DNA of 64,000 bases, from IMG/VR virus record IMGVR_UViG_3300027759_000063, positions 35,594 to 99,593 of that record. The stretch is one strand, 5' to 3'. Positions 1-40,272 of the stretch are shown piece after piece (within the stretch, counting starts at the first letter, position 1; each line of letters begins with the position of its first letter). A program made the position numbers and the translations under genes. This DNA is from a virus. A model generated the notes under the pieces. That model saw nothing but the letters and a program-made list of their open reading frames with translations, ran no database searches and was not told where the DNA came from.

Positions 1-2
1 TG

Positions 3-695
3 ATTGATGTAATCTTGCATGCCTGCCAGTTTGGGTCTTAGATCTTGATCATACATGGTTACATTGAAGTCAGCACTGTAGTAACCAAACGGGCGAAACG
101 CATCATCACCTATGTATGTATCATTGTCGTGTGCAAGATGTTCTAGAGTTTTTCCTATTTCACAATAATTGAGATATACAGTGCCAAATTTGATCTCAAG
201 CTCACCATGCTCACGCATGATTTCTGAATTTAACCATTTGGTTTTTGGCATGCCAAACCAAGTACAAACGAATCTAGGACAAGGTGAATTCAGTGCAGTT
301 TCACATCTGTGAACTGCCAAATTCAAATTGGCCAATGCTGTGCGTACTTCGACCGGAGCATCAAGCCAATACTGTGATGTTTGTTGGTCTAGCAAACCGT
401 GATACTGTTCAAAAATATTGTGCAAATAGTTTAAACAATCTTGTGTGTATTCAAATTCGCGATCAACTATTGGCTGGTGTTGATTGATCGTAGCAATGCA
501 TTGTTGAATCATATCAACTGCTCGATCTTGCTCTTGTTGGGCGGTGCCAAATCCATAAAATCTATCCGGATTGTCCATGGGCCAAGCATGTCGTTGGCTC
601 ATGCGCTCAAGCCACAGTTTGGCCAAGGGTGTTTGTCTTATGTTAAAACACAATTCAAAATTGTCGGCCAATGTAATTACAAGATGCTGAGACAT
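3..695 (-). CDS. Hypothetical phage protein, 3'-truncated by the window edge
   Basis: Not in the ORF track because no stop lies in the window. Open frame from ATG 695: MSQHLVITLADNFELCFNIRQTPLAKLW...GTVYLNYCEIGKTLEHLAHDND...QDYIN. A consensus promoter lies 5 nt upstream. Confidence 0.8.
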   Translation of the reverse strand, partial: MSQHLVITLADNFELCFNIRQTPLAKLWLERMSQRHAWPMDNPDRFYGFGTAQQEQDRAVDMIQQCIATINQHQPIVDREFEYTQDCLNYLHNIFEQYHGLLDQQTSQYWLDAPVEVRTALANLNLAVHRCETALNSPCPRFVCTWFGMPKTKWLNSEIMREHGELEIKFGTVYLNYCEIGKTLEHLAHDNDTYIGDDAFRPFGYYSADFNVTMYDQDLRPKLAGMQDYIN

Positions 696-700
696 AACAC

Positions 701-729
701 AGTATATACTCTTGCAAAACAAAAGTCAA
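701..729 (-). promoter_or_regulatory. Sigma70-type promoter giving a leaderless transcript
   Basis: TTGACT-17 nt-TATACT-GTGTT-ATG(695); no SD. Confidence 0.75.
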
Positions 730-754
730 AAAAACAGGCTCCGAAGAGCCTGTT
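728..754 (-). terminator. Rho-independent terminator with UUCG loop
   Basis: Minus strand AACAGGCTC-TTCG-GAGCCTGTT-TTTTT, downstream of the AAA ATPase unit. Confidence 0.85.
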
Positions 755-760
755 GTAAAA

Positions 761-790
761 ACCCGGGGCGGAGCCAACCAATCCCCGGGG
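761..790 (-). ncRNA. Candidate anti-RBS stem-loop (3'-UTR sRNA or cis antisense element)
   Basis: Stem CCCGGGG/CCCCGGG with loop ATTGGTTGGCTCCG, complementary to GGAGCCA(A/G)CAAT at four gene starts. Confidence 0.5.
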
Positions 791-796
791 TAAAAC

Positions 797-889
797 TCAA
801 TCAGTGAATATTAATAGCAGTACAGTTAAGAACAGTGCCCACCACAGTTCACCTAACAGTACTAAGATGAGCACTCCAATCCAAGCCAT
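797..889 (-). CDS. 30-aa hydrophobic membrane peptide
   Basis: MAWIGVLILVLLGELWWALFLTVLLLIFTD*; ATG 1 nt after the ATPase stop (TAAC-ATG), suggesting translational coupling; below the track length cutoff. Confidence 0.65.
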   Translation of the reverse strand: MAWIGVLILVLLGELWWALFLTVLLLIFTD

Positions 890-890
890 G

Positions 891-1919
891 TTAGGCACTC
901 TTCATACAAGTTGTCTCAGCCATGCGCTTCCAATTGCCTGCAAAGCTCTTGCGCAAGTCTGCAATCTTCAGGGCCATGCGCAAGCTCATCTCACGCAAGC
1001 GATTCTGATTTGCTTCCATGAACTCCACAATCTCGTCCTGTACTACAGGCTCAAAATCGTAATCTGAAAACAGCACACCGTCCTTGGCAATCTGCTTGAT
1101 ACGCAACACCTTGTCACGCATGGTGTCAAGTGTCAAGTCCAGGTAGTGACAGCGTGATTGCAGTGCATCCAAGTGATCACGCAACTTTTGCGATTTCATT
1201 GTGTCAAACTTCAAGTTGGTGATAAAAATCACACTGCCTTTGAACTCGAAACGATCTGGGATGCCTTCACGACGCAGAGCACTAGACTCTGACAACCATG
1301 AAATTGTGCGCTTCTTGCCTGAGTCCAAGGCACCCTTCAGCAAGTTCAAGGCTACGTCATCAAGCAAAATGCTGTCACAGTCATCAAACACCAACACACA
1401 ATTGGCATCTGAATACTTGTACAGTGTCTGATACAAGCCAATAGGCGTTGCACTACCTTTCACAACTTCAGCACGGAGGCGCTTGCCTGCCAACTTGTCA
1501 AACAAGGTGGCCTTTTCGATCTCACGCTCGACGCCAAAGCTCTTGCCAACTCCAGGAGGGCCGCTCACAATCATGGCACGGATGTCACCGTTCACACAAG
1601 CCTTTGTCATCTCATTCAAGATGTCAAAACGCTCGCGAATGCGAGTCATAATTTGATCTTCAGTTTCAGTTTCAGTCTGTGCGGCAACAAAGGCCACGGT
1701 GTTGTCATTACTCACTGCTTCTCCATTGACATACTCGATGTCGCTAATGTTGTTGACTTTGATACGAACTACATCAAACTCGGGACCAAAGTAGCCTGCG
1801 CTTTGTACAGTCACAAAGCCACCCTTGGCACCAGTTTGAAATCCTTTTACAAGATTGAATGTTGCATTCTTAACTGGGTTGTTGCGATACACACCATTAA
1901 TCACTCGAATTGCACTCAT
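891..1919 (-). CDS. AAA+/P-loop ATPase
   Basis: Walker A GPPGVGKS, Walker B VLVFDD, sensor FITN, ALQSR arginine finger; AGGAG RBS. Confidence 0.85.
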   Translation of the reverse strand: MSAIRVINGVYRNNPVKNATFNLVKGFQTGAKGGFVTVQSAGYFGPEFDVVRIKVNNISDIEYVNGEAVSNDNTVAFVAAQTETETEDQIMTRIRERFDILNEMTKACVNGDIRAMIVSGPPGVGKSFGVEREIEKATLFDKLAGKRLRAEVVKGSATPIGLYQTLYKYSDANCVLVFDDCDSILLDDVALNLLKGALDSGKKRTISWLSESSALRREGIPDRFEFKGSVIFITNLKFDTMKSQKLRDHLDALQSRCHYLDLTLDTMRDKVLRIKQIAKDGVLFSDYDFEPVVQDEIVEFMEANQNRLREMSLRMALKIADLRKSFAGNWKRMAETTCMKSA

Positions 1920-1964
1920 TGTTGGCTCCTTTGAAATGCGTTGTTGTTTACTGTTTATGTTTCT

Positions 1965-1993
1965 ATTATAGCAAAAGTTGAATTAATGGTCAA
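1965..1993 (-). promoter_or_regulatory. Early promoter repeat, copy 1
   Basis: TTGACC-attaattcaacttttgc(17)-TATAAT with extended -10 TG. Confidence 0.85.
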
Positions 1994-2165
1994 CCGGGGC
2001 AAACAGTTCTTGCCCTTGTTGCACAAAAACAACAAACGCTTCCATTGTGCGTTCACTGTAGATCATGAGACCATGTTGTTTGATGTCTTGTAAAACTTCC
2101 AACAGGCCCATGCCCTGAAAGTCTGCTTCTTTTTGTATTTGTTTGACTGCTGTTGCAATCTGCAT
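1983..2165 (-). CDS. Small early hypothetical protein (60 aa)
   Basis: Start re-called to MQIATAVK, preceded by AGGAGCCAGCA. Confidence 0.75.
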   Translation of the reverse strand: MQIATAVKQIQKEADFQGMGLLEVLQDIKQHGLMIYSERTMEAFVVFVQQGQELFAPVDH

Positions 2166-2195
2166 TGCTGGCTCCTTTTTGCTTTGTATGTGGTT

Positions 2196-2243
2196 ATTAT
2201 AGCATTTTGGCAATTATTGGTCAAGTGCTACAAAAGTGTTACT
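2196..2243 (-). promoter_or_regulatory. Early promoter repeat, copy 2, with degenerate tandem operator boxes
   Basis: TTGACC-aataattgccaaaatgc-TATAAT (2196-2224); upstream boxes at 2224-2243. Confidence 0.85.
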
Positions 2244-2474
2244 TTTTGTTTTCTCAGCGCCAACAATTTCCCAATGACTTCCGTCACACTTGACAAAAAT
2301 CTTACGACCAAAAACCGTCACAAAACCATACTCACCGTCTTGATACACATTGACCGGATCAGGAATAATGGTCACTGTACGGGGCGTCTCACAGTAATCC
2401 CAGCGTCTGGTGGGCAGTTTATTTTTGAAGTACATGTAATTTTGACTACCTGTAACAAAAAGTTTTACCTTCAT
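2214..2474 (-). CDS. Small early hypothetical protein (86 aa)
   Basis: ORF with its own promoter and a GAGGG RBS. Confidence 0.75.
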   Translation of the reverse strand: MKVKLFVTGSQNYMYFKNKLPTRRWDYCETPRTVTIIPDPVNVYQDGEYGFVTVFGRKIFVKCDGSHWEIVGAEKTKSNTFVALDQ

Positions 2475-2504
2475 AATCTGCCCTCTTTTGCGTTGTATGT
2501 CCGT

Positions 2505-2552
2505 ATTATAGCATTTTGGGAATTATTGGTCAAGTACTACTAGAGTGTTACT
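2505..2552 (-). promoter_or_regulatory. Early promoter repeat, copy 3, with tandem operator boxes
   Basis: TTGACC-aataattcccaaaatgc-TATAAT (2505-2533); AGTAACACT-CT-AGTAGTACT overlaps the -35. Confidence 0.85.
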
Positions 2553-2757
2553 TTTTAAAAGCTTCAAAGAAACGAGTATTTATTTCGTCCATTTCTGCTT
2601 GCTCCACATAGAAGTCAGTAGTAGGATCGTAGTACTGGCCCTCTTTGTTGTCATAATACAACACACGGCCACTAAAGTTAAACGGGCCTTCCAGTCCTGC
2701 ACGAGCACTGTATCGGTCACGCATGACGTCTTGGGTGTCAACCACACGATATCCCAT
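2548..2757 (-). CDS. Small early hypothetical protein (69 aa)
   Basis: Start re-called to MGYRVVD after AGGAGCCAGCA; contains GLEGPF..GRVLYYD.KEGQYYDPTTDFYV. Confidence 0.8.
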   Translation of the reverse strand: MGYRVVDTQDVMRDRYSARAGLEGPFNFSGRVLYYDNKEGQYYDPTTDFYVEQAEMDEINTRFFEAFKK

Positions 2758-2786
2758 TGCTGGCTCCTGTTTGTTTGTAAGCCACA

Positions 2787-2834
2787 ATTATAGCATTTTG
2801 AGAATTATTGGTCAAGTACTACTAGAGTATTACT
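2787..2834 (-). promoter_or_regulatory. Early promoter repeat, copy 4, with tandem operator boxes
   Basis: TTGACC-aataattctcaaaatgc-TATAAT (2787-2815); AGTAATACT-CT-AGTAGTACT overlaps the -35. Confidence 0.85.
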
Positions 2835-3570
2835 GCCAAAAATTGGCTATTATGGGGTCATTGATTTCGTGTGGCTTGGGACGACCGTGGAATACTAGTA
2901 CACTGGTGCCTGGATTAAGTTTAGCCCCGGACCCAGGATTGATAGCCTGCCGGCGTTGAAAATTGTATCCACCATCTGCCACTTGCCAACGCCAACTTTG
3001 AATATATTGTTGATCAAAATTTCTTCTCTGCCGGTGATCAATTACTGCACCCAAGTAGTCTTGATCGCCTTGATATCTACGCACAGTGTCATCAATGTTG
3101 AGTCGATCAAAATCTGTCCAAACGTGTGCAAATCGTTCGGTGTTCCAATACATTATGCTTGAATTCATTCCTGAAAAAGAAGCCTGTTGCAAATATCTAA
3201 AATCTCGTATGGTCCAAAAATAATCAAGATGACAGTCTAACATCCAATCCAGTTGATCTATTATAACCACGTCAAGATCCATGTACAACAAATTGCCTGA
3301 ATGATGCTCGGGATTGAACAACTGCATCTTGTACCACCATTCACGTTTGGGTCCTGAAATGCCGGGCCATTCTTTCACCACATGTTTGATCATGTGCGAG
3401 GGCACTGACCTGTCTGCTTCAGTGTACACATGAAAACGTATACCATCTTGCAAATTACGGCTCAGCATGTTGTACAGTTTTTCCACATACTGCCAGTCAT
3501 AACCTGTACCGTGAATAACACAAGCACAGTCAGTTATGCTGTCAGGGCGGGCGCGATTCTTTTTAGCCAT
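2830..3570 (-). CDS. GT-A glycosyltransferase (GT8-like)
   Basis: WWYKMQLF, LYMDLDVVI (DxD), NSSIM, GDQDYL and FHGRPKP motifs. Confidence 0.8.
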   Translation of the reverse strand: MAKKNRARPDSITDCACVIHGTGYDWQYVEKLYNMLSRNLQDGIRFHVYTEADRSVPSHMIKHVVKEWPGISGPKREWWYKMQLFNPEHHSGNLLYMDLDVVIIDQLDWMLDCHLDYFWTIRDFRYLQQASFSGMNSSIMYWNTERFAHVWTDFDRLNIDDTVRRYQGDQDYLGAVIDHRQRRNFDQQYIQSWRWQVADGGYNFQRRQAINPGSGAKLNPGTSVLVFHGRPKPHEINDPIIANFWQ

Positions 3571-32956: not shown

Positions 32957-32989
32957 GAAATGGAGGCCCGGTAAAAGGCCCCCTGTTTC
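32957..32989 (-). terminator. Imperfect hairpin after the sheath gene
   Basis: GAAACAGGGGGCC-loop-GGCCTCCATTTC. Confidence 0.4.
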
Positions 32990-32990
32990 A

Positions 32991-35900
32991 TCACCCTGCT
33001 GTGCCGCCTGCGATTTCACCAGTGTTCTTGATACGCAATGGAATGTAGATAAACTCCACAGCCTTCACAGGCTCAATAGCAACATCCATCCACAGTTCGT
33101 TGGCGTCAATACGTGCTGGTGTGTTATTGCTTAGGTCACACACAACCAAGTAGTCATAGATGGCACGTTTGGCCACAAGGTCAATCATCAAACTGTTGGC
33201 GGTGTTGGCAATTTCATTACGAGTAATTTGATCATTGGGTTCAAACAAATACAGTTTACCAATTTCTTCTAGTCGTCCACGCAAGAAGCAAATCAGTCGA
33301 GCAACGTTGATACGGTCCAGGGCTGTTGTGGCACCTTGACGTGTTTTGTTACCAAAGTTTGTGATGCCAACACCTGGAATGAATGTGATTGGATTGATAT
33401 TGTTTGAATACAACACGTCACGCAACCCTTGTCCAATAGCAGTTTGTACAAATTCACCAGTGGTGGCTTCAATGTAACCAATAGCTGTGGCATTGTCAAT
33501 CACACCACGGCGGGTACCAGCGGGTGCCAACCATGGATAGCTCACAGCATCGCTGCGCAGGATAGTGCGCATCATCATGTGGCTTGGAGGTGCCACCACT
33601 GTGTTACCACTCAAGTCTGTGGTTTGACAGCTGGGGTAGAACACCGCAGCATAAGCACTTCCAATAGTGAGTCCGTCACCAGTTGGCAATCCAAGTCCAC
33701 CGTTGTCTGTAGCATAAGTCACAAGATCTGTGCCATTGGCAGCCAGTCGCATGGGAGTATCGCCCACAACAAACAGTGTGTTGGCACGTTCGTTGCTGAG
33801 TGCAACCATGTTTGTGGCCAACTCAGGGTATGCAGGAGCAGCAATCAAGTTGAATTGATTTTGTTCTTCTCTAGCTGCCAAGCTGGTGTCAATACCGGCT
33901 TTCATGGCCTTGACCACCAAGGCACGTTGAGCTTGGCGTCCAGCATACATACTGCCGTTGGCTTTGTTGCCACTGGTGGTTACCCAAGTAAAACTGTATT
34001 CAGGCAAGTTGGCAGTGTTTGTGGGTGCTGCAGGATTGTATGCCCCGGCATCTGGATAGTTGTTTGCAGTAAAGTAGTTGGTGGTGAATGCCTTGACATT
34101 GTATCCTGAACGACGTGTGTTGAACAGCAACATGCCTTGTGGATACAGTGCAGGATCAGGTGCATCCAGATCCAAGTAATCACTGGTCAGCAAACTTTCA
34201 ATTGTGGGTATGGTATCGCTTACTGGATTGATAGCGCCGCTTGTGCCCCAACGTGCATCTGTAAACAGTATACCATTTTGTGTGACCTGATCTGTGGTGT
34301 CAACTGCCACCCATTGTTCAGTACCGTTGACTTGTTCCCAACGATACAATTTGGGATAATTTTCCAAGTCGCTGGTGTCGACCCACAAATCGCCCAATTC
34401 CAGCGCAGATTCTGCTGTGTTGGTTTGAGTAGTGGGTGCGGTCGCCGCTATGATTGGTCCAGCAGCATTGGTCAAACTCAGATCAAAACCGCGAACATCG
34501 TTGGTGACATTCTGATAACCTTGCCAAGTGCCGTTGTCTTGAATCATGATATCCACATCACTTACTGAGCTGTAGTACCACAGGCGTCCATCTGCTGGAT
34601 TCTGATCTGGACTGGTAGCACTGGCAGTGTAGGTAAATGTTGGATCACTAACCCAATTTGACAAGTCCAAGTACCCGCCACCGTTGCTGTTGGCGCTGAC
34701 ATAAGTGGTGGCAGTTGTGAAACCAGCCGTGGTCAAAGGTGTGCCCACATTTGGCCCAACTGTGATGGTACCACCTTGTGAATGAGACAGCACAATATTA
34801 CCAGCACTGCTGACACTGGCGCTGACATAAGGAATGTTGGCCAAGCTCACTGCTGTGATAAAATCTGACACAGTACCTGTACCACCAATGGTCACAGTGT
34901 ATTGATCTCCAACTGCGGCTGTTCCTGCCTGAGTTGAGTATGCATAAAAACTGTTGCCAGGAACAAATGCAGCACCAGTTGGGGTGGTTGTTCCTGTTAC
35001 TATTGTGGCCCCCAGTACAGCTCGTTCAAAAATTTTAAATGTACTGTTGCTATTAGGAGCAGTGGTTGATATGGCAGCATTGTATTGCACATAAGTGGTG
35101 CCAACTGGAATATTTTTGCCGCCACCTGTGGGATCTAAAGCGTACAAGGCTGCTGCGTCATTGAGATAAACTCCAGATGTTTGTGACACAAAGGTATCCA
35201 ATGCGGCACTGTATACCTTGACTTTCAAACTCATGCCATCATTGGCTGAACTGAGATTTTGCCACACTGATCCTGTGGGTTCTGGAGCAGTGTCTGTGCT
35301 TCTCCAACGTGGGGCTTGATAACTGTATCCTGGGAAATAATTTGGTGCACGATATTCATCGTTGGCAATACCAAGCGCAGTCAACAAAGCTGTGCCGGCA
35401 TTGGGTCCAGGCAAAACAGAAACCACACCACCACTGGCAGTTGATCCATCATTTGTGGCCAAGGAGCTGACAAACAATGCCAAGCTGCCGCCTACATTGG
35501 CAGCAGTCACACCAGTCACAGCGGCAGTGTTAATTGCTGCTGCAAATCCAGTGACAGTGTTGTTGGGGCTGGCAGGAACTGTTACTAAAGTACCATTAAG
35601 AAATAAAGTGCTGCCAACAGTCAAACTTGCAGGGGTTGTGGTTCCGACCACTGCAGGCCATGATGTTTTCCAGGCGTCGCTGCCAAGAAACACCCAGGTA
35701 TTGCTGGAATTTTTATAATAACCTGGATTGGTCAATGCCACTGCACTCACCGCATAGTCGCCGATGCTGCCCACAGTTGACAATGGAGTATAATTGCCAC
35801 CTGCATAGTTAACTACCAAACTGGTGTCAGTAATCACAATTGGGGTAATTGTGGTAAAAGTTGCAGAAGTTTGGTTCCATTCTTGAATTCCCCACACAGA

Positions 35901-38728: not shown

Positions 38729-39865
38729 CCAGGCCTTGAGTATGACCAAGTTCTCAGTTCCGCGTCCGTTGAACGGTGTTTCTGTTGTGGTAAGATCCTT
38801 GTAGATCTTACGTGCTGCCGGCTTGCCTGCGGCCTGCACAGCCTTTACAACATCTGCTGGCTTGCGCACAGTTTTTTGCATGGTCTCAACAGTGCTGAAA
38901 CCAATGATGCTGTTGCTTTTGACAGTGAATGCCTGTGTGTGGCTGTCAGCCACAAGATGGATCAACTTGCGCTTTTTGGTGTCGTATAACCAGGCTTCGG
39001 CTTTGTCCACTAGACTTGCGGCTGGCAAGCCCTTGAGCTTGAGTTCGGCAAATTCCATTAGCACCTTGAACTTTGCCGCACGTTTTTCAGGGCTCACTGC
39101 CTTGACCTTGCGTGGTTTGCGTTCCACTTTTTTAATTTGCACATATGCGCCACAGTCATTTATGACCGCTTCGCAAAACTTCACAAGATTGCGCATTTGA
39201 ATTTTGGTGAGATGACTGTAGCCCTCAACCAGTTGTGCATCTTTGCCTTCAATTACAGTTTCAAACTCTGCAAGTTTGTGTTTCCAGATGTCGGCAATGT
39301 TGGAGATCATTTGCGGAGCCACATTCATGCCACGGATAACTGTGATGGGCTTGTAGTCTGCTGACATTTTAGCACCGTTAACCAGGAACTCGTCAAACAT
39401 GCCGTCCAGTTCGCCTGCACACTCTGATACCTTTTCACGCAGGCGATCTTGGATATTGGGTCGTGCAGGTTCGTCTTCTGCAACCGCTTCCACCACGGCT
39501 TGTTGTTTTAGAGCCAGCAATTCTGAAATCAATGTTTGTAATTTGATTTCTTCTTGTGCTGTCAAGTCCAGGCCCATCATCTGCATGCGGCACAACCAGC
39601 CTGTGGTGAGTCGCATTTGTGAGTCTGGTAGGGTGCGGATTTGTCGGGCCTCTTTTGTGCGATTGTGTGCATCCAAATATGCCGCCACCATGTCCTTGGC
39701 TTCTTTCTTGCCGTAGAAGTAATTATACCAGCCAAACGCATAACTCATTGTGCTAACACGATTATCCTCTGTGGGCTGAGTTTTCCATGCAGGCTCAAGC
39801 CCAACATACTTGGTGTCGGCGCTTTTGGGATTCATGGGTCGTAATGCTGTGCGGGTTGCATTCAT
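38726..39865 (-). CDS. Early hypothetical protein (379 aa)
   Basis: Start re-called to MNATRT after AGGAGCCCAC; basic C-terminal domain. Confidence 0.8.
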   Translation of the reverse strand: MNATRTALRPMNPKSADTKYVGLEPAWKTQPTEDNRVSTMSYAFGWYNYFYGKKEAKDMVAAYLDAHNRTKEARQIRTLPDSQMRLTTGWLCRMQMMGLDLTAQEEIKLQTLISELLALKQQAVVEAVAEDEPARPNIQDRLREKVSECAGELDGMFDEFLVNGAKMSADYKPITVIRGMNVAPQMISNIADIWKHKLAEFETVIEGKDAQLVEGYSHLTKIQMRNLVKFCEAVINDCGAYVQIKKVERKPRKVKAVSPEKRAAKFKVLMEFAELKLKGLPAASLVDKAEAWLYDTKKRKLIHLVADSHTQAFTVKSNSIIGFSTVETMQKTVRKPADVVKAVQAAGKPAARKIYKDLTTTETPFNGRGTENLVILKAW

Positions 39866-39946: not shown

Positions 39947-40216
39947 TTAGAACACATGCCCTTTAAATTGCTCGTAATCATAAAATGCAACCAAAGTACT
40001 ACCACGGAAAAATACTGTGAGCCCACCCAAGTCCTCACGCACATCTGCCCCAGTCGTCTCTGCAATAAAGTCCGTAGCACGAGTCTCAAGTGCTTCCATC
40101 AAGTCATCACCGGTGGCGTTGTAACTGGCAAGAGCCTCTGCTTCATAGTTAATACTATAGTTTGGCGCTACGCTGTTGATCATCTCATCATGCAAATCGG
40201 TAACTAAATCACTCAT
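39947..40216 (-). CDS. Small acidic early hypothetical protein (89 aa)
   Basis: Start re-called to MSDLVT after AGGAGCCAGCA. Confidence 0.75.
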   Translation of the reverse strand: MSDLVTDLHDEMINSVAPNYSINYEAEALASYNATGDDLMEALETRATDFIAETTGADVREDLGGLTVFFRGSTLVAFYDYEQFKGHVF

Positions 40217-40243
40217 TGCTGGCTCCTTTGTTGTTAAGTCCAT

Positions 40244-40272
40244 ATTATAGCATTTTGGGCATTATTGGTCAA
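40244..40272 (-). promoter_or_regulatory. Early promoter repeat, copy 6
   Basis: TTGACC-aataatgcccaaaatgc(17)-TATAAT. Confidence 0.85.

What the first reader, a model, noticed from the sequence alone, without database searches (positions are those of the whole stretch)
761..790. 3'-UTR stem-loop whose loop is antisense to the shared RBS and start codon of the early genes: candidate phage anti-SD sRNA regulon
Seen in sequence: on the minus-strand transcript, between the AAA-ATPase/peptide stop (797) and the UUCG terminator (728-754), a 7-bp GC stem displays the loop 5'-AUUGGUUGGCUCCG-3'. The loop pairs (12 bp, one bulged G) with 5'-GGAGCCAACAAU(G)-3' at the ATPase start (1917-1930) and with 5'-GGAGCCAGCAAU(G)-3' at three other starts (2163-2176, 2755-2768, 40214-40227). 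The single variable target position (A/G) faces a loop U that pairs with either base. A fifth start (39865, GGAGCC) matches 6 nt. All of these genes sit behind the same sigma70-type promoter repeat. The SD-to-AUG spacer is normally free to vary, so its conservation suggests selection as a binding site. Inference: a stable 3'-end RNA fragment accumulates and shuts off translation of a dispersed early-gene set, including its own operon, acting as a negative-feedback timer.
Basis: partly seen in the sequence, partly recalled or inferred. Interest (0 to 1): 0.9.

Follow-up and report, generated by a model that had tools for sequence, protein, structure and literature searches.

The report
Phage mRNA tail masks its own RBS
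In a family of uncultured giant phages, a hairpin at the end of one early operon carries the antisense of the ribosome-binding site of that operon's first gene (an AAA ATPase); the two sites have changed together many times, so they almost certainly pair as RNA to restrain the gene's translation.

Summary
Hairpin 762-790 (minus strand) has a 7-bp GC stem and the loop AUUGGUUGGCUCCG. This loop is complementary to GGAGCCAACAAUG at the start of the NrdC.10-like ATPase and to GGAGCCAGCAAUG at three other early starts.

About 100 related jumbo-phage contigs have the same operon-end hairpin, and its loop matches that phage's ATPase RBS through about 10 different sequence classes. Examples are GGAGCCAACC/GGUUGGCUCC, GGGCUAGAAA/UUUCUAGCCC, GGGCUAGUAA/UUACUAGCCC, GGAGUUGGC/GCCAACUCC, CAGGAGUUAAA/UUUAACUCCUG and AGGAGCUAGA/UCUAGCUCCU. 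The stem also changes, by compensation.

In variant lineages the motif occurs exactly twice per contig, once at the RBS and once in the loop. The conserved target is therefore the operon's own first gene, not a dispersed regulon. The extra GGAGCC starts in this window are early-promoter cassette (PeSL-like) RBSs. They drift in close relatives without any loop change.

Best reading: an autoregulatory 3'-UTR anti-RBS element, acting either in cis (icaR-like) or as a processed 3' fragment (CarZ-like). Which of the two cannot be told without RNA data.

The scan found this before in another genome of this phage family (e1-5883170) and reached the same reading.

The parts
1965..1993 (-). Early sigma70-type promoter of the ATPase operon (TTGACC-17-TATAAT)
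   Evidence: the same promoter type precedes the ATPase gene in relatives
1917..1929 (-). SD, spacer and start codon GGAGCCAACAAUG of the ATPase gene: the conserved target of the loop
   Evidence: the RBS core GGAGCCAA is kept in all 65 class-1 loci, GGAGCCAAC in 64; mean predicted unpaired probability 0.71
891..1919 (-). NrdC.10-like AAA ATPase, 342 aa, first gene of the operon
   Evidence: phrog_1250 at 3e-84; Pfam AAA; tblastn hits annotated nrdC.10 in T4-like phages; 43% identity to PA5oct gp126
797..889 (-). 30-aa hydrophobic peptide ORF (stop and start overlap as TAACATG); present in many relatives, absent in others
   Evidence: the ATPase stop is followed directly by the element in L012, L081, L026/27, L051, L064, L192/193/204 and L154/158
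762..790 (-). Hairpin 1: 7-bp GC stem (783-789 with 762-768) and 14-nt loop (769-782). The anti-RBS core GUUGGCUCC lies at 770-778, at the 3' end of the loop; AUUG at 779-782 adds 3 bp across a bulged G
   Evidence: 29 or more distinct paired stems and 24 or more loops in relatives, with the anti-RBS always at the 3' end of the loop
728..753 (-). Hairpin 2: canonical intrinsic terminator (UUCG tetraloop, U7); its U-tract overlaps the next promoter's -35
   Evidence: compensatory changes in 6 of 10 pairs across 49 relatives
693..729 (-). Next promoter (TTGACT 724-729, TATACT 701-706) and the ATG at 693-695, only 5 nt after the -10: a leaderless or near-leaderless downstream gene. Not a target of the loop
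   Evidence: the same layout is seen in relatives
2163..2175 (-). GGAGCCAGCAAUG start of a 60-aa early gene: a possible secondary (trans) target
   Evidence: the RBS drifts in close relatives
2755..2767 (-). GGAGCCAGCAAUG start of a 69-aa early gene: a possible secondary target
40214..40226 (-). GGAGCCAGCAAUG start of an 89-aa early gene: a possible secondary target

Best explanation
Hairpin 1 is a dedicated anti-RBS element in the 3' UTR of the early NrdC.10-like ATPase operon.

Proposed mechanism. The operon is transcribed from its sigma70-type promoter. The SD and start region of the ATPase lies in an A/C-rich, largely unstructured 45-nt leader. Once the 3' end of the operon has been made, the 3' half of the hairpin-1 loop (GUUGGCUCC, displayed on a GC stem) pairs with GGAGCCAAC(AAU) at the ATPase start. 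This forms a 9-12 bp helix that can stack on the hairpin stem. It occludes the SD and AUG and so limits further initiation. The effect is negative autoregulation, or a cap on yield per transcript.

The pairing partner may be the same molecule (a cis 5'-3' closure, as in icaR), or another copy of the mRNA, or a processed fragment made of hairpin 1 plus the terminator (as for CarZ).

What is shown: the complementarity, its position, its conservation, covariation in about 10 sequence classes, stem covariation, and its exclusivity to the ATPase RBS in several lineages. What is inferred: that the pairing occurs as RNA, that it represses translation, and whether it acts in cis or in trans.
For: 1. 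Nearly every related locus with enough downstream sequence has the element just 5' of the U7 terminator, 36-1757 nt after the ATPase stop. That is about 75 of 78 loci in the first set and about 22 of 26 new ones in the second.

2. Matched RBS/loop classes: GGAGCCAAC(C)(A)/(U)(G)GUUGGCUCC; GGAGCUAG or GGAGCUAA/UUAGCUCC; (CA)GGAGUUAAA/UUUAACUCC(UG); GGGCUAGAAA/UUUCUAGCCC; GGGCUAGUAA/UUACUAGCCC; GGAGUUGGC/GCCAACUCC; AGGAGCUAGA/UCUAGCUCCU; CGGAGCCA/UGGCUCCG; AGGAGCCAACC/GGUUGGCUCCU.

3. Single-position compensations: class 4 against class 5 (A/U becomes U/A); L177 against L143 (A-U becomes G-C); L194 against L192 (C-G becomes A-U, 5' of GGAG).

4. Permutation of seven class representatives: the true pairing ranks in the top 2 of 5040 by longest Watson-Crick match and the top 4 of 5040 by duplex energy. 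The best derangement sums to 45 against 64 observed.

5. On the ATPase tree the variant classes sit at five or more separate places within the class-1 background.

6. Hairpin 1 has 29 or more different well-paired stems (CCCGGGG, CCTGGGC/GCCCAGG, GTTCGGG/CCCGAAC, AGAGTCGC/GCGACTCT, GGATTGCC/GGCAATCC and others). The anti-RBS always abuts the 3' arm.

7. Exclusivity. The variant 9- or 10-mers occur exactly once forward (the RBS) and once reverse (the loop) in contigs of 8-74 kb. GGAGCCAAC does the same in a 143-kb contig.

8. In the 97%-complete 349-kb relative, only one of 21 strict terminators is preceded by a large-loop GC hairpin. It is this one, and its best RBS complement within 4.5 kb upstream is the ATPase RBS.

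9. The U-run after hairpin 1 is not conserved (CUUUA, UUUUA). Its conserved role is therefore not termination.

10. Precedents for the mechanism: icaR (PMC3868564) and CarZ/OppZ (PMC7398697).
Against: RNAfold predicts two G-C pairs inside the loop of this window, leaving G778/G779 and C770/C771 with an unpaired probability of 0.05 or less. The loop would have to open them.

The partners are 1.1-2.1 kb apart, and the loop pairing is a pseudoknot that no tool here can score.

Some loci are imperfect or lack the element. L154/158 have 1-2 mismatches. L148 and L041/42 pair over only about 6-7 bp. L034 has no element within 4 kb.

Most class switches change many positions at once. They may therefore be module swaps by recombination rather than stepwise compensation. 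That still implies selection for matched pairs, but it means fewer independent events.

T4 nrdC.10 shows no such pairing.
Confidence: 0.75

Rival explanations
1. The fragment made of hairpin 1 plus the terminator accumulates as a 3'-derived sRNA of about 65-70 nt. It represses in trans a dispersed set of early mRNAs that share the GGAGCCA RBS, acting as an early shut-off timer. This could coexist with autoregulation.
For: Three other early starts in the contig carry GGAGCCAGCAAUG. GGAGCC RBSs are concentrated behind early promoters: 6/6 against 1/14 here, and 8/15 against 2/66 in the 349-kb relative. In a class-3 genome, two other early genes carry ACAGGAGUU/ACAGGAGUG, which fits that genome's loop over 7-8 nt. 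The two-hairpin, U-tailed 3' end resembles known 3'-UTR sRNAs (PMC7398697).
Against: In class-4, class-5 and class-9 lineages no other gene carries the target. A 143-kb class-1 contig has only the ATPase RBS. A 99%-complete genome has no perfect target at all. In relatives at 88-97% identity with an unchanged loop, the neighbours' RBSs drift to 6-7 nt matches. Shared SD and spacer among early genes is also what homologous PeSL-type cassettes would give (PMC4122927). No internal promoter or conserved processing site was seen upstream of hairpin 1.
Confidence: 0.2
2. The 5'-3' pairing is real, but its main role is mRNA stability or processing. It might close the mRNA to protect the 5' end or the SD from an endonuclease (hbs-like), or it might create a stacked helix that RNase III cleaves. 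Translational repression as such would not be the main role.
For: The same covariation evidence applies. The anti-RBS always abuts the 3' arm, so the RBS helix could stack on the stem to give about 17-19 bp. Precedents: hbs (PMC5737220) and RNase III cleavage of icaR (PMC3868564).
Against: The paired segment always covers the SD itself, which is the obvious way to block initiation. No RegB or RegA homologue was found in the 97%-complete relative, although the control genomes did not ring either, so that result is weak.
Confidence: 0.12
3. Hairpin 1 is only the first of two tandem terminators, and its complementarity to the RBS is chance.
For: In this window it is followed by U5. Matches of 9 nt or more between RBS windows and downstream sequence are common genome-wide.
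Against: The U-run is not conserved in relatives, whereas the loop is. The loop tracks the RBS through about 10 classes. Loops of 11-20 nt are atypical for intrinsic terminators.
Confidence: 0.03
4. The feature acts at the DNA level. A short inverted repeat flanking the ATPase cassette would serve as a protein-binding or recombination site (PeSL-style module shuffling). Alternatively, it is a hok-like fold-back that controls the small membrane peptide.
For: The region is built of PeSL-like promoter/terminator cassettes.
Against: One copy always covers the SD. The other always lies in a hairpin loop or in a single-stranded 3' UTR on the transcribed strand. G-U wobble is tolerated (L026/27, and GGAGCCAACU loci), which fits RNA and not DNA. 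The peptide ORF is absent from many loci that keep the pair, and the pairing involves the ATPase SD, not the peptide's. No antisense promoter was found.
Confidence: 0.04

Closest known systems
icaR mRNA 5'UTR-3'UTR interaction, Staphylococcus aureus (PMC3868564)
   Same: An anti-SD motif in the 3' UTR of an mRNA pairs with the SD of the same mRNA. The reported outcomes are translational repression and RNase III cleavage.
   Different: Here the motif sits in a lytic jumbo-phage early operon of 1-4 genes. It is displayed in the loop of a GC hairpin directly before the terminator, and the 3' UTR is very short. Pairing extends 5-7 nt beyond the SD into the spacer, which gives lineage-specific 'addresses'. 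Support here comes from natural covariation, not from experiments.
CarZ and OppZ, autoregulatory 3'-UTR-derived sRNAs of Vibrio cholerae (PMC7398697)
   Same: An RNA element at the 3' end of an operon shares the operon's terminator and base-pairs with an RBS of its own operon (CarZ with the first gene, carA). This gives negative feedback at 1:1 stoichiometry.
   Different: For those sRNAs, RNase E processing, Hfq binding and Rho-dependent termination were shown; nothing is known here. The seed here lies in a hairpin loop in most classes, and is 5' single-stranded only in classes 2 and 3.
PeSL composite terminator/early-promoter/SD cassettes of T4-like phages (PMC2839356, PMC4122927)
   Same: Both have a stem-loop followed by a sigma70-like early promoter, repeated cassettes heading small early genes, and a shared SD region.
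   Different: PeSLs are described as recombination and regulatory modules. The passages I searched in PMC4122927 report no complementarity between a stem-loop's loop and an upstream RBS. Here the cassette downstream of the hairpins heads a leaderless gene, and the loop matches the RBS of the upstream operon.
Phage precedents recalled from my own knowledge, not checked here: the P1/P7 c4 antisense RNA acting on the icd/ant RBS in its own operon; MS2 maturation-gene SD masking by long-distance pairing (a kinetic window); the hok mRNA fbi-tac fold-back; lambda sib retroregulation
   Same: In each, a same-transcript RNA element controls an RBS or the fate of the mRNA. P1 and P7 differ by covarying loop/target specificities, much like the classes seen here.
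   Different: c4 lies 5' of its target and is released by RNase P. The MS2 partner lies upstream. hok controls a toxin and has an antisense partner. sib acts through RNase III and not through the SD.

Membership tests
icaR-type 3'UTR-5'UTR anti-SD interaction | An anti-SD sequence in the 3' UTR of the same transcript as the target SD | tested here: met
   There is no strict terminator and no promoter-like site between the ATPase RBS and hairpin 1. The element lies 7 nt after the last stop codon.
icaR-type 3'UTR-5'UTR anti-SD interaction | Base pairing between the two UTRs that is under selection | tested here: met
   Covariation in about 10 classes; permutation rank 2 of 5040.
icaR-type 3'UTR-5'UTR anti-SD interaction | The pairing lowers translation and/or triggers RNase III cleavage | not testable with these tools
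   Needs reporters, toeprinting or RNase assays.
Autoregulatory 3'-UTR-derived sRNA (CarZ/OppZ type) | Located at the operon's 3' end, sharing the mRNA's intrinsic terminator | tested here: met
   Hairpin 1 is followed within 9 nt by the U7 terminator.
Autoregulatory 3'-UTR-derived sRNA (CarZ/OppZ type) | Complementary to an RBS in its own operon | tested here: met
Autoregulatory 3'-UTR-derived sRNA (CarZ/OppZ type) | Released as a stable small RNA by RNase E; Hfq-dependent | not testable with these tools
Trans-acting sRNA with a multi-gene regulon | Several unlinked targets whose complementarity is conserved along with the seed | tested here: not met
   Other GGAGCC starts exist in class-1 genomes but drift while the loop stays unchanged. 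Variant lineages have no second target.
Intrinsic (rho-independent) terminator | A GC-rich hairpin with a short loop, followed by a U-tract | tested here: inconclusive
   Hairpin 1 has U5 in this window but CUUUA or UUUUA in most relatives, and its loop is 11-20 nt. Hairpin 2 meets the definition fully.
PeSL cassette | Stem-loop, then a sigma70-like early promoter, then SD and start | tested here: inconclusive
   Hairpin 2 plus TTGACT-17-TATACT fits the first two parts, but the downstream gene has no SD (ATG 5 nt after the -10). The upstream cassettes at 1965-2834 fit better.
hok/Sok-type type I toxin fold-back | The fold-back controls a small toxin ORF and has a cis-antisense RNA partner | tested here: not met
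   The peptide ORF is absent from many loci that keep the pair. The pairing is with the ATPase SD. No antisense promoter was seen.
Any Rfam family | A covariance-model match | tested here: not met
   Window 1-3000 at E up to 1 gave only a spurious snoRNA hit inside the ATPase CDS.

The most novel reading that the evidence does not exclude
The element works as a transcription-length timer with a lineage-specific address. The ATPase RBS is open only while RNA polymerase is still transcribing the 1.1-2.1 kb operon. Once hairpin 1 emerges, its loop closes the RBS, or the released 3' fragment does so in trans and, in class-1 phages, also damps other early mRNAs with a GGAGCCA RBS. The roughly 10 RBS/loop address classes would then be orthogonal specificities that keep co-infecting relatives from cross-silencing each other, as in P1/P7 c4 heteroimmunity.
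Probability: 0.2. Interest if true: 0.85.

Novelty: new variant of a known kind. Interest (0 to 1): 0.68.

Why it matters
Control of an RBS from the 3' UTR is known from only a few bacterial mRNAs. My searches of the paper library found no example in a lytic phage.

Here nature supplies the compensatory-mutation experiment. About 100 environmental genomes carry about 10 orthogonal RBS/loop pairs on one conserved scaffold. This gives three things:
- a strong, sequence-only case that a long-range mRNA 5'-3' interaction is under selection;
- a ready set of orthogonal parts for testing cis against trans action in reporters;
- a hint that the dose of the widespread but uncharacterised NrdC.10-type AAA ATPase must be tightly limited early in infection.

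Tried and rejected
- RNAalifold on a MAFFT alignment of 49 elements recovered only the terminator hairpin, because the variable loop lengths misalign hairpin 1. I tabulated stems and loops by script instead.
- A genome-wide search for complements of 9 nt or more between RBS windows and the next 4 kb did not discriminate: 76 hits against 60 for a reversed control.
- A megablast search of the phage collection found nothing.
- T4 nrdC.10 shows no RBS/3' complementarity. Aeromonas phage 25 and Acinetobacter ZZ1 show nothing significant. PA5oct gp126 has an 8-nt complement in the 3' arm of the hairpin 20 nt after its stop, p roughly 0.02, with no covariation data available.
- RegB (PF10715) and RegA (PF01818) were not found in G000, G010 or G011. 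The control genomes did not ring either, so this is weak.
- Rfam gave no family.
- The hok-like and DNA-repeat readings were rejected for the reasons given under the rival explanations.
- No hairpin with this loop occurs elsewhere in the contig or in the 349-kb relative.
- No complex prediction or structure jobs were run, because they were not relevant.

Full report
**Context**

The window is bases 35594-99593 of a 99.6-kb IMG/VR fragment. CheckV puts it at 29% complete, so the phage genome is about 340 kb. The gene at 891-1919 (minus strand) is a 342-aa AAA ATPase. It matches phrog_1250 at 3e-84 and Pfam AAA. Its tblastn hits are annotated nrdC.10 in T4-like phages, and it is 43% identical to PA5oct gp126.

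The gene is headed by TTGACC-17-TATAAT and a 45-nt A/C-rich leader. After it come four features:
- a 30-aa hydrophobic ORF (797-889);
- hairpin 1 (762-790);
- a canonical terminator (728-753);
- the promoter of a leaderless downstream gene, which overlaps the terminator's U-tract.

**The observation**

GGAGCCARCAATG occurs four times in the whole contig, always at an early-promoter start. The contiguous core with the ATPase RBS is 9 bp. Three further pairs follow across a bulged G, and the duplex energy is -18.4 kcal/mol.

RNAfold narrows the loop with UGG/CCG inner pairs. This is a mild point against free accessibility. Within this genome alone the match would not be compelling, because a crude survey of RBS windows against downstream sequence gives similar counts for a reversed control.

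**Relatives**

A scan of IMG/VR with the ATPase returned 80 loci at 77-97% amino-acid identity. A second scan, seeded with a divergent member, added 26 new contigs.

In nearly all loci with enough downstream sequence, the operon ends in the same way. The operon is the ATPase plus 0-3 small ORFs. The ending is a GC hairpin with an 11-20 nt loop, then a U-rich linker, then a U7 terminator, then TTGACT. In two classes a single-stranded stretch followed by a small hairpin replaces the GC hairpin.

The 3' end of the loop is always the reverse complement of that phage's ATPase SD plus the following 4-7 nt:

| RBS | Loop |
|---|---|
| GGAGCCAAC(C)(A) | (U)(G)GUUGGCUCC |
| GGAGCUAG or GGAGCUAA | UUAGCUCC |
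| (CA)GGAGUUAAA | UUUAACUCC(UG) |
| GGGCUAGAAA | UUUCUAGCCC |
| GGGCUAGUAA | UUACUAGCCC |
| GGAGUUGGC | GCCAACUCC |
| AGGAGCUAGA | UCUAGCUCCU |
| CGGAGCCA | UGGCUCCG |
| AGGAGCCAACC | GGUUGGCUCCU |

Several differences between classes are clean single-pair compensations, and G-U wobble is tolerated.

Further tests:
- I permuted seven class representatives. The true assignment ranks in the top 2 of 5040 by longest Watson-Crick match and the top 4 of 5040 by duplex energy.
- On an ATPase tree the variant classes are nested at five or more separate places within the GGAGCCAAC background.
- Hairpin 1 itself shows 29 or more different well-paired stems.
- The terminator shows compensatory change in 6 of 10 pairs.
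- The U-run after hairpin 1 is not conserved. The selected feature is therefore the displayed loop, not termination.

Exceptions exist. L154/158 have one or two mismatches. L148 and L041/42 pair over only 6-7 bp. L034 has no element within 4 kb.

**Own operon or regulon?**

The variant 9- or 10-mers occur exactly twice per record, once at the ATPase RBS and once inverted in the loop, in contigs of up to 74 kb. In a 143-kb class-1 contig GGAGCCAAC occurs only at those two places. In the 349-kb, 97%-complete relative most GGAGCCAAC copies are Gly-Ala-Asn codons inside genes. Only the ATPase and its upstream neighbour use it as an RBS. A 99%-complete genome has no perfect target for its loop.

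In that same 349-kb genome only one of 21 strict terminators is preceded by a large-loop GC hairpin. It is this one, and its best RBS match within 4.5 kb upstream is the ATPase RBS.

On the other side, GGAGCC RBSs are clearly a hallmark of early-promoter genes in class-1 genomes (Fisher p = 1.8e-4 and 7.5e-6). A class-3 genome has similarly flavoured early RBSs of its own. Two observations weaken this as evidence for a regulon:
- These cassettes resemble PeSL modules, which carry promoter and SD together.
- In close relatives with an identical loop, the neighbours' RBSs drift while the ATPase RBS does not.

I conclude that the selected partner is the ATPase RBS. Trans effects on other early genes of this window are possible but secondary and unproven.

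**Mechanism**

The most economical reading is occlusion of the SD and AUG by the 3' loop. This is negative autoregulation, or a cap on yield per transcript.

The anti-RBS always abuts the 3' arm, so the intermolecular helix could stack on the stem. The hairpin starts 0-26 nt after the last stop codon in most loci, so terminating ribosomes may modulate it; this last point is speculative.

No tool here can decide between cis action (icaR-like, PMC3868564) and action through a released 3' fragment (CarZ-like, PMC7398697).

**Other points**

There is no Rfam family for the element. No RegA or RegB homologue was found. T4 nrdC.10 has no equivalent pairing, and PA5oct gives only a weak hint. My literature searches found no described phage example.

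An earlier follow-up in this scan, on another genome of the same phage family (e1-5883170), reached the same reading. I treat that as agreement, not as independent evidence. Every claim above rests on calls made here.

Noticed in passing
window 693-729 (minus strand): The gene downstream of the terminator appears leaderless. TTGACT-17-TATACT is followed after only 5 nt by ATG (693-695), with no SD. Relatives show the same layout, with 2-11 nt between the -10 and the ATG.
   Followed up: partly
window 1965-2834 and 40244-40272 (minus strand): Repeated modules of early promoter, A/C-rich leader and SD head small genes of 60-89 aa. They resemble the PeSL cassettes of T4-like phages (PMC4122927). 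GGAGCC after the SD is nearly diagnostic of early-promoter genes.
   Followed up: partly
L105:2640-2700 (Pseudomonas phage PA5oct, downstream of gp126): The hairpin AAAGUAGCA-AGG-AUGCUACUUU lies 20 nt after the stop of the ATPase homologue. Its 3' arm is an 8-nt complement of that gene's RBS spacer (GGAGUAGCAUUUAUG). It may be a distant echo of the same principle in a cultured phage.
   Followed up: partly
L048, L060, L062, L063, L072, L075 (about 20 nt 5' of hairpin 1): A second anti-SD stretch, CUCCUUUUU, lies just upstream of hairpin 1. It is complementary to AAAAAGGAG of the same ATPase leader.
   Followed up: no
L058:3817-3940, L069:2918-3041, L064:3850-3942: An extra early-type promoter lies about 90-120 nt upstream of the ATPase promoter, with no ORF behind it. 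This could be tandem promoters or a short non-coding transcript.
   Followed up: no
window 39510-39522 (plus-strand coordinates; read on the minus-strand transcript): An 11-nt perfect complement (AUUGCUGGCUC) of the GGAGCCAGCAAU start at 40214-40226 lies 695 nt downstream, inside the next gene's coding region. This is probably chance.
   Followed up: no
G000:C1:~32960-33954 (outside the window, minus strand): A 14-nt perfect complement (CCUGCCUUGGUAUU) to a GTG-start RBS-like site lies 991 nt upstream of it on the same transcript. This is unexpected by chance (about 0.05 expected genome-wide), but the start itself is doubtful.
   Followed up: no
L109-L126 (G010, 89-130 kb): GGAGCCAAC is over-represented in the 349-kb relative because it encodes Gly-Ala-Asn in repetitive fibre-like proteins, not because it serves as an RBS.
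   Followed up: yes
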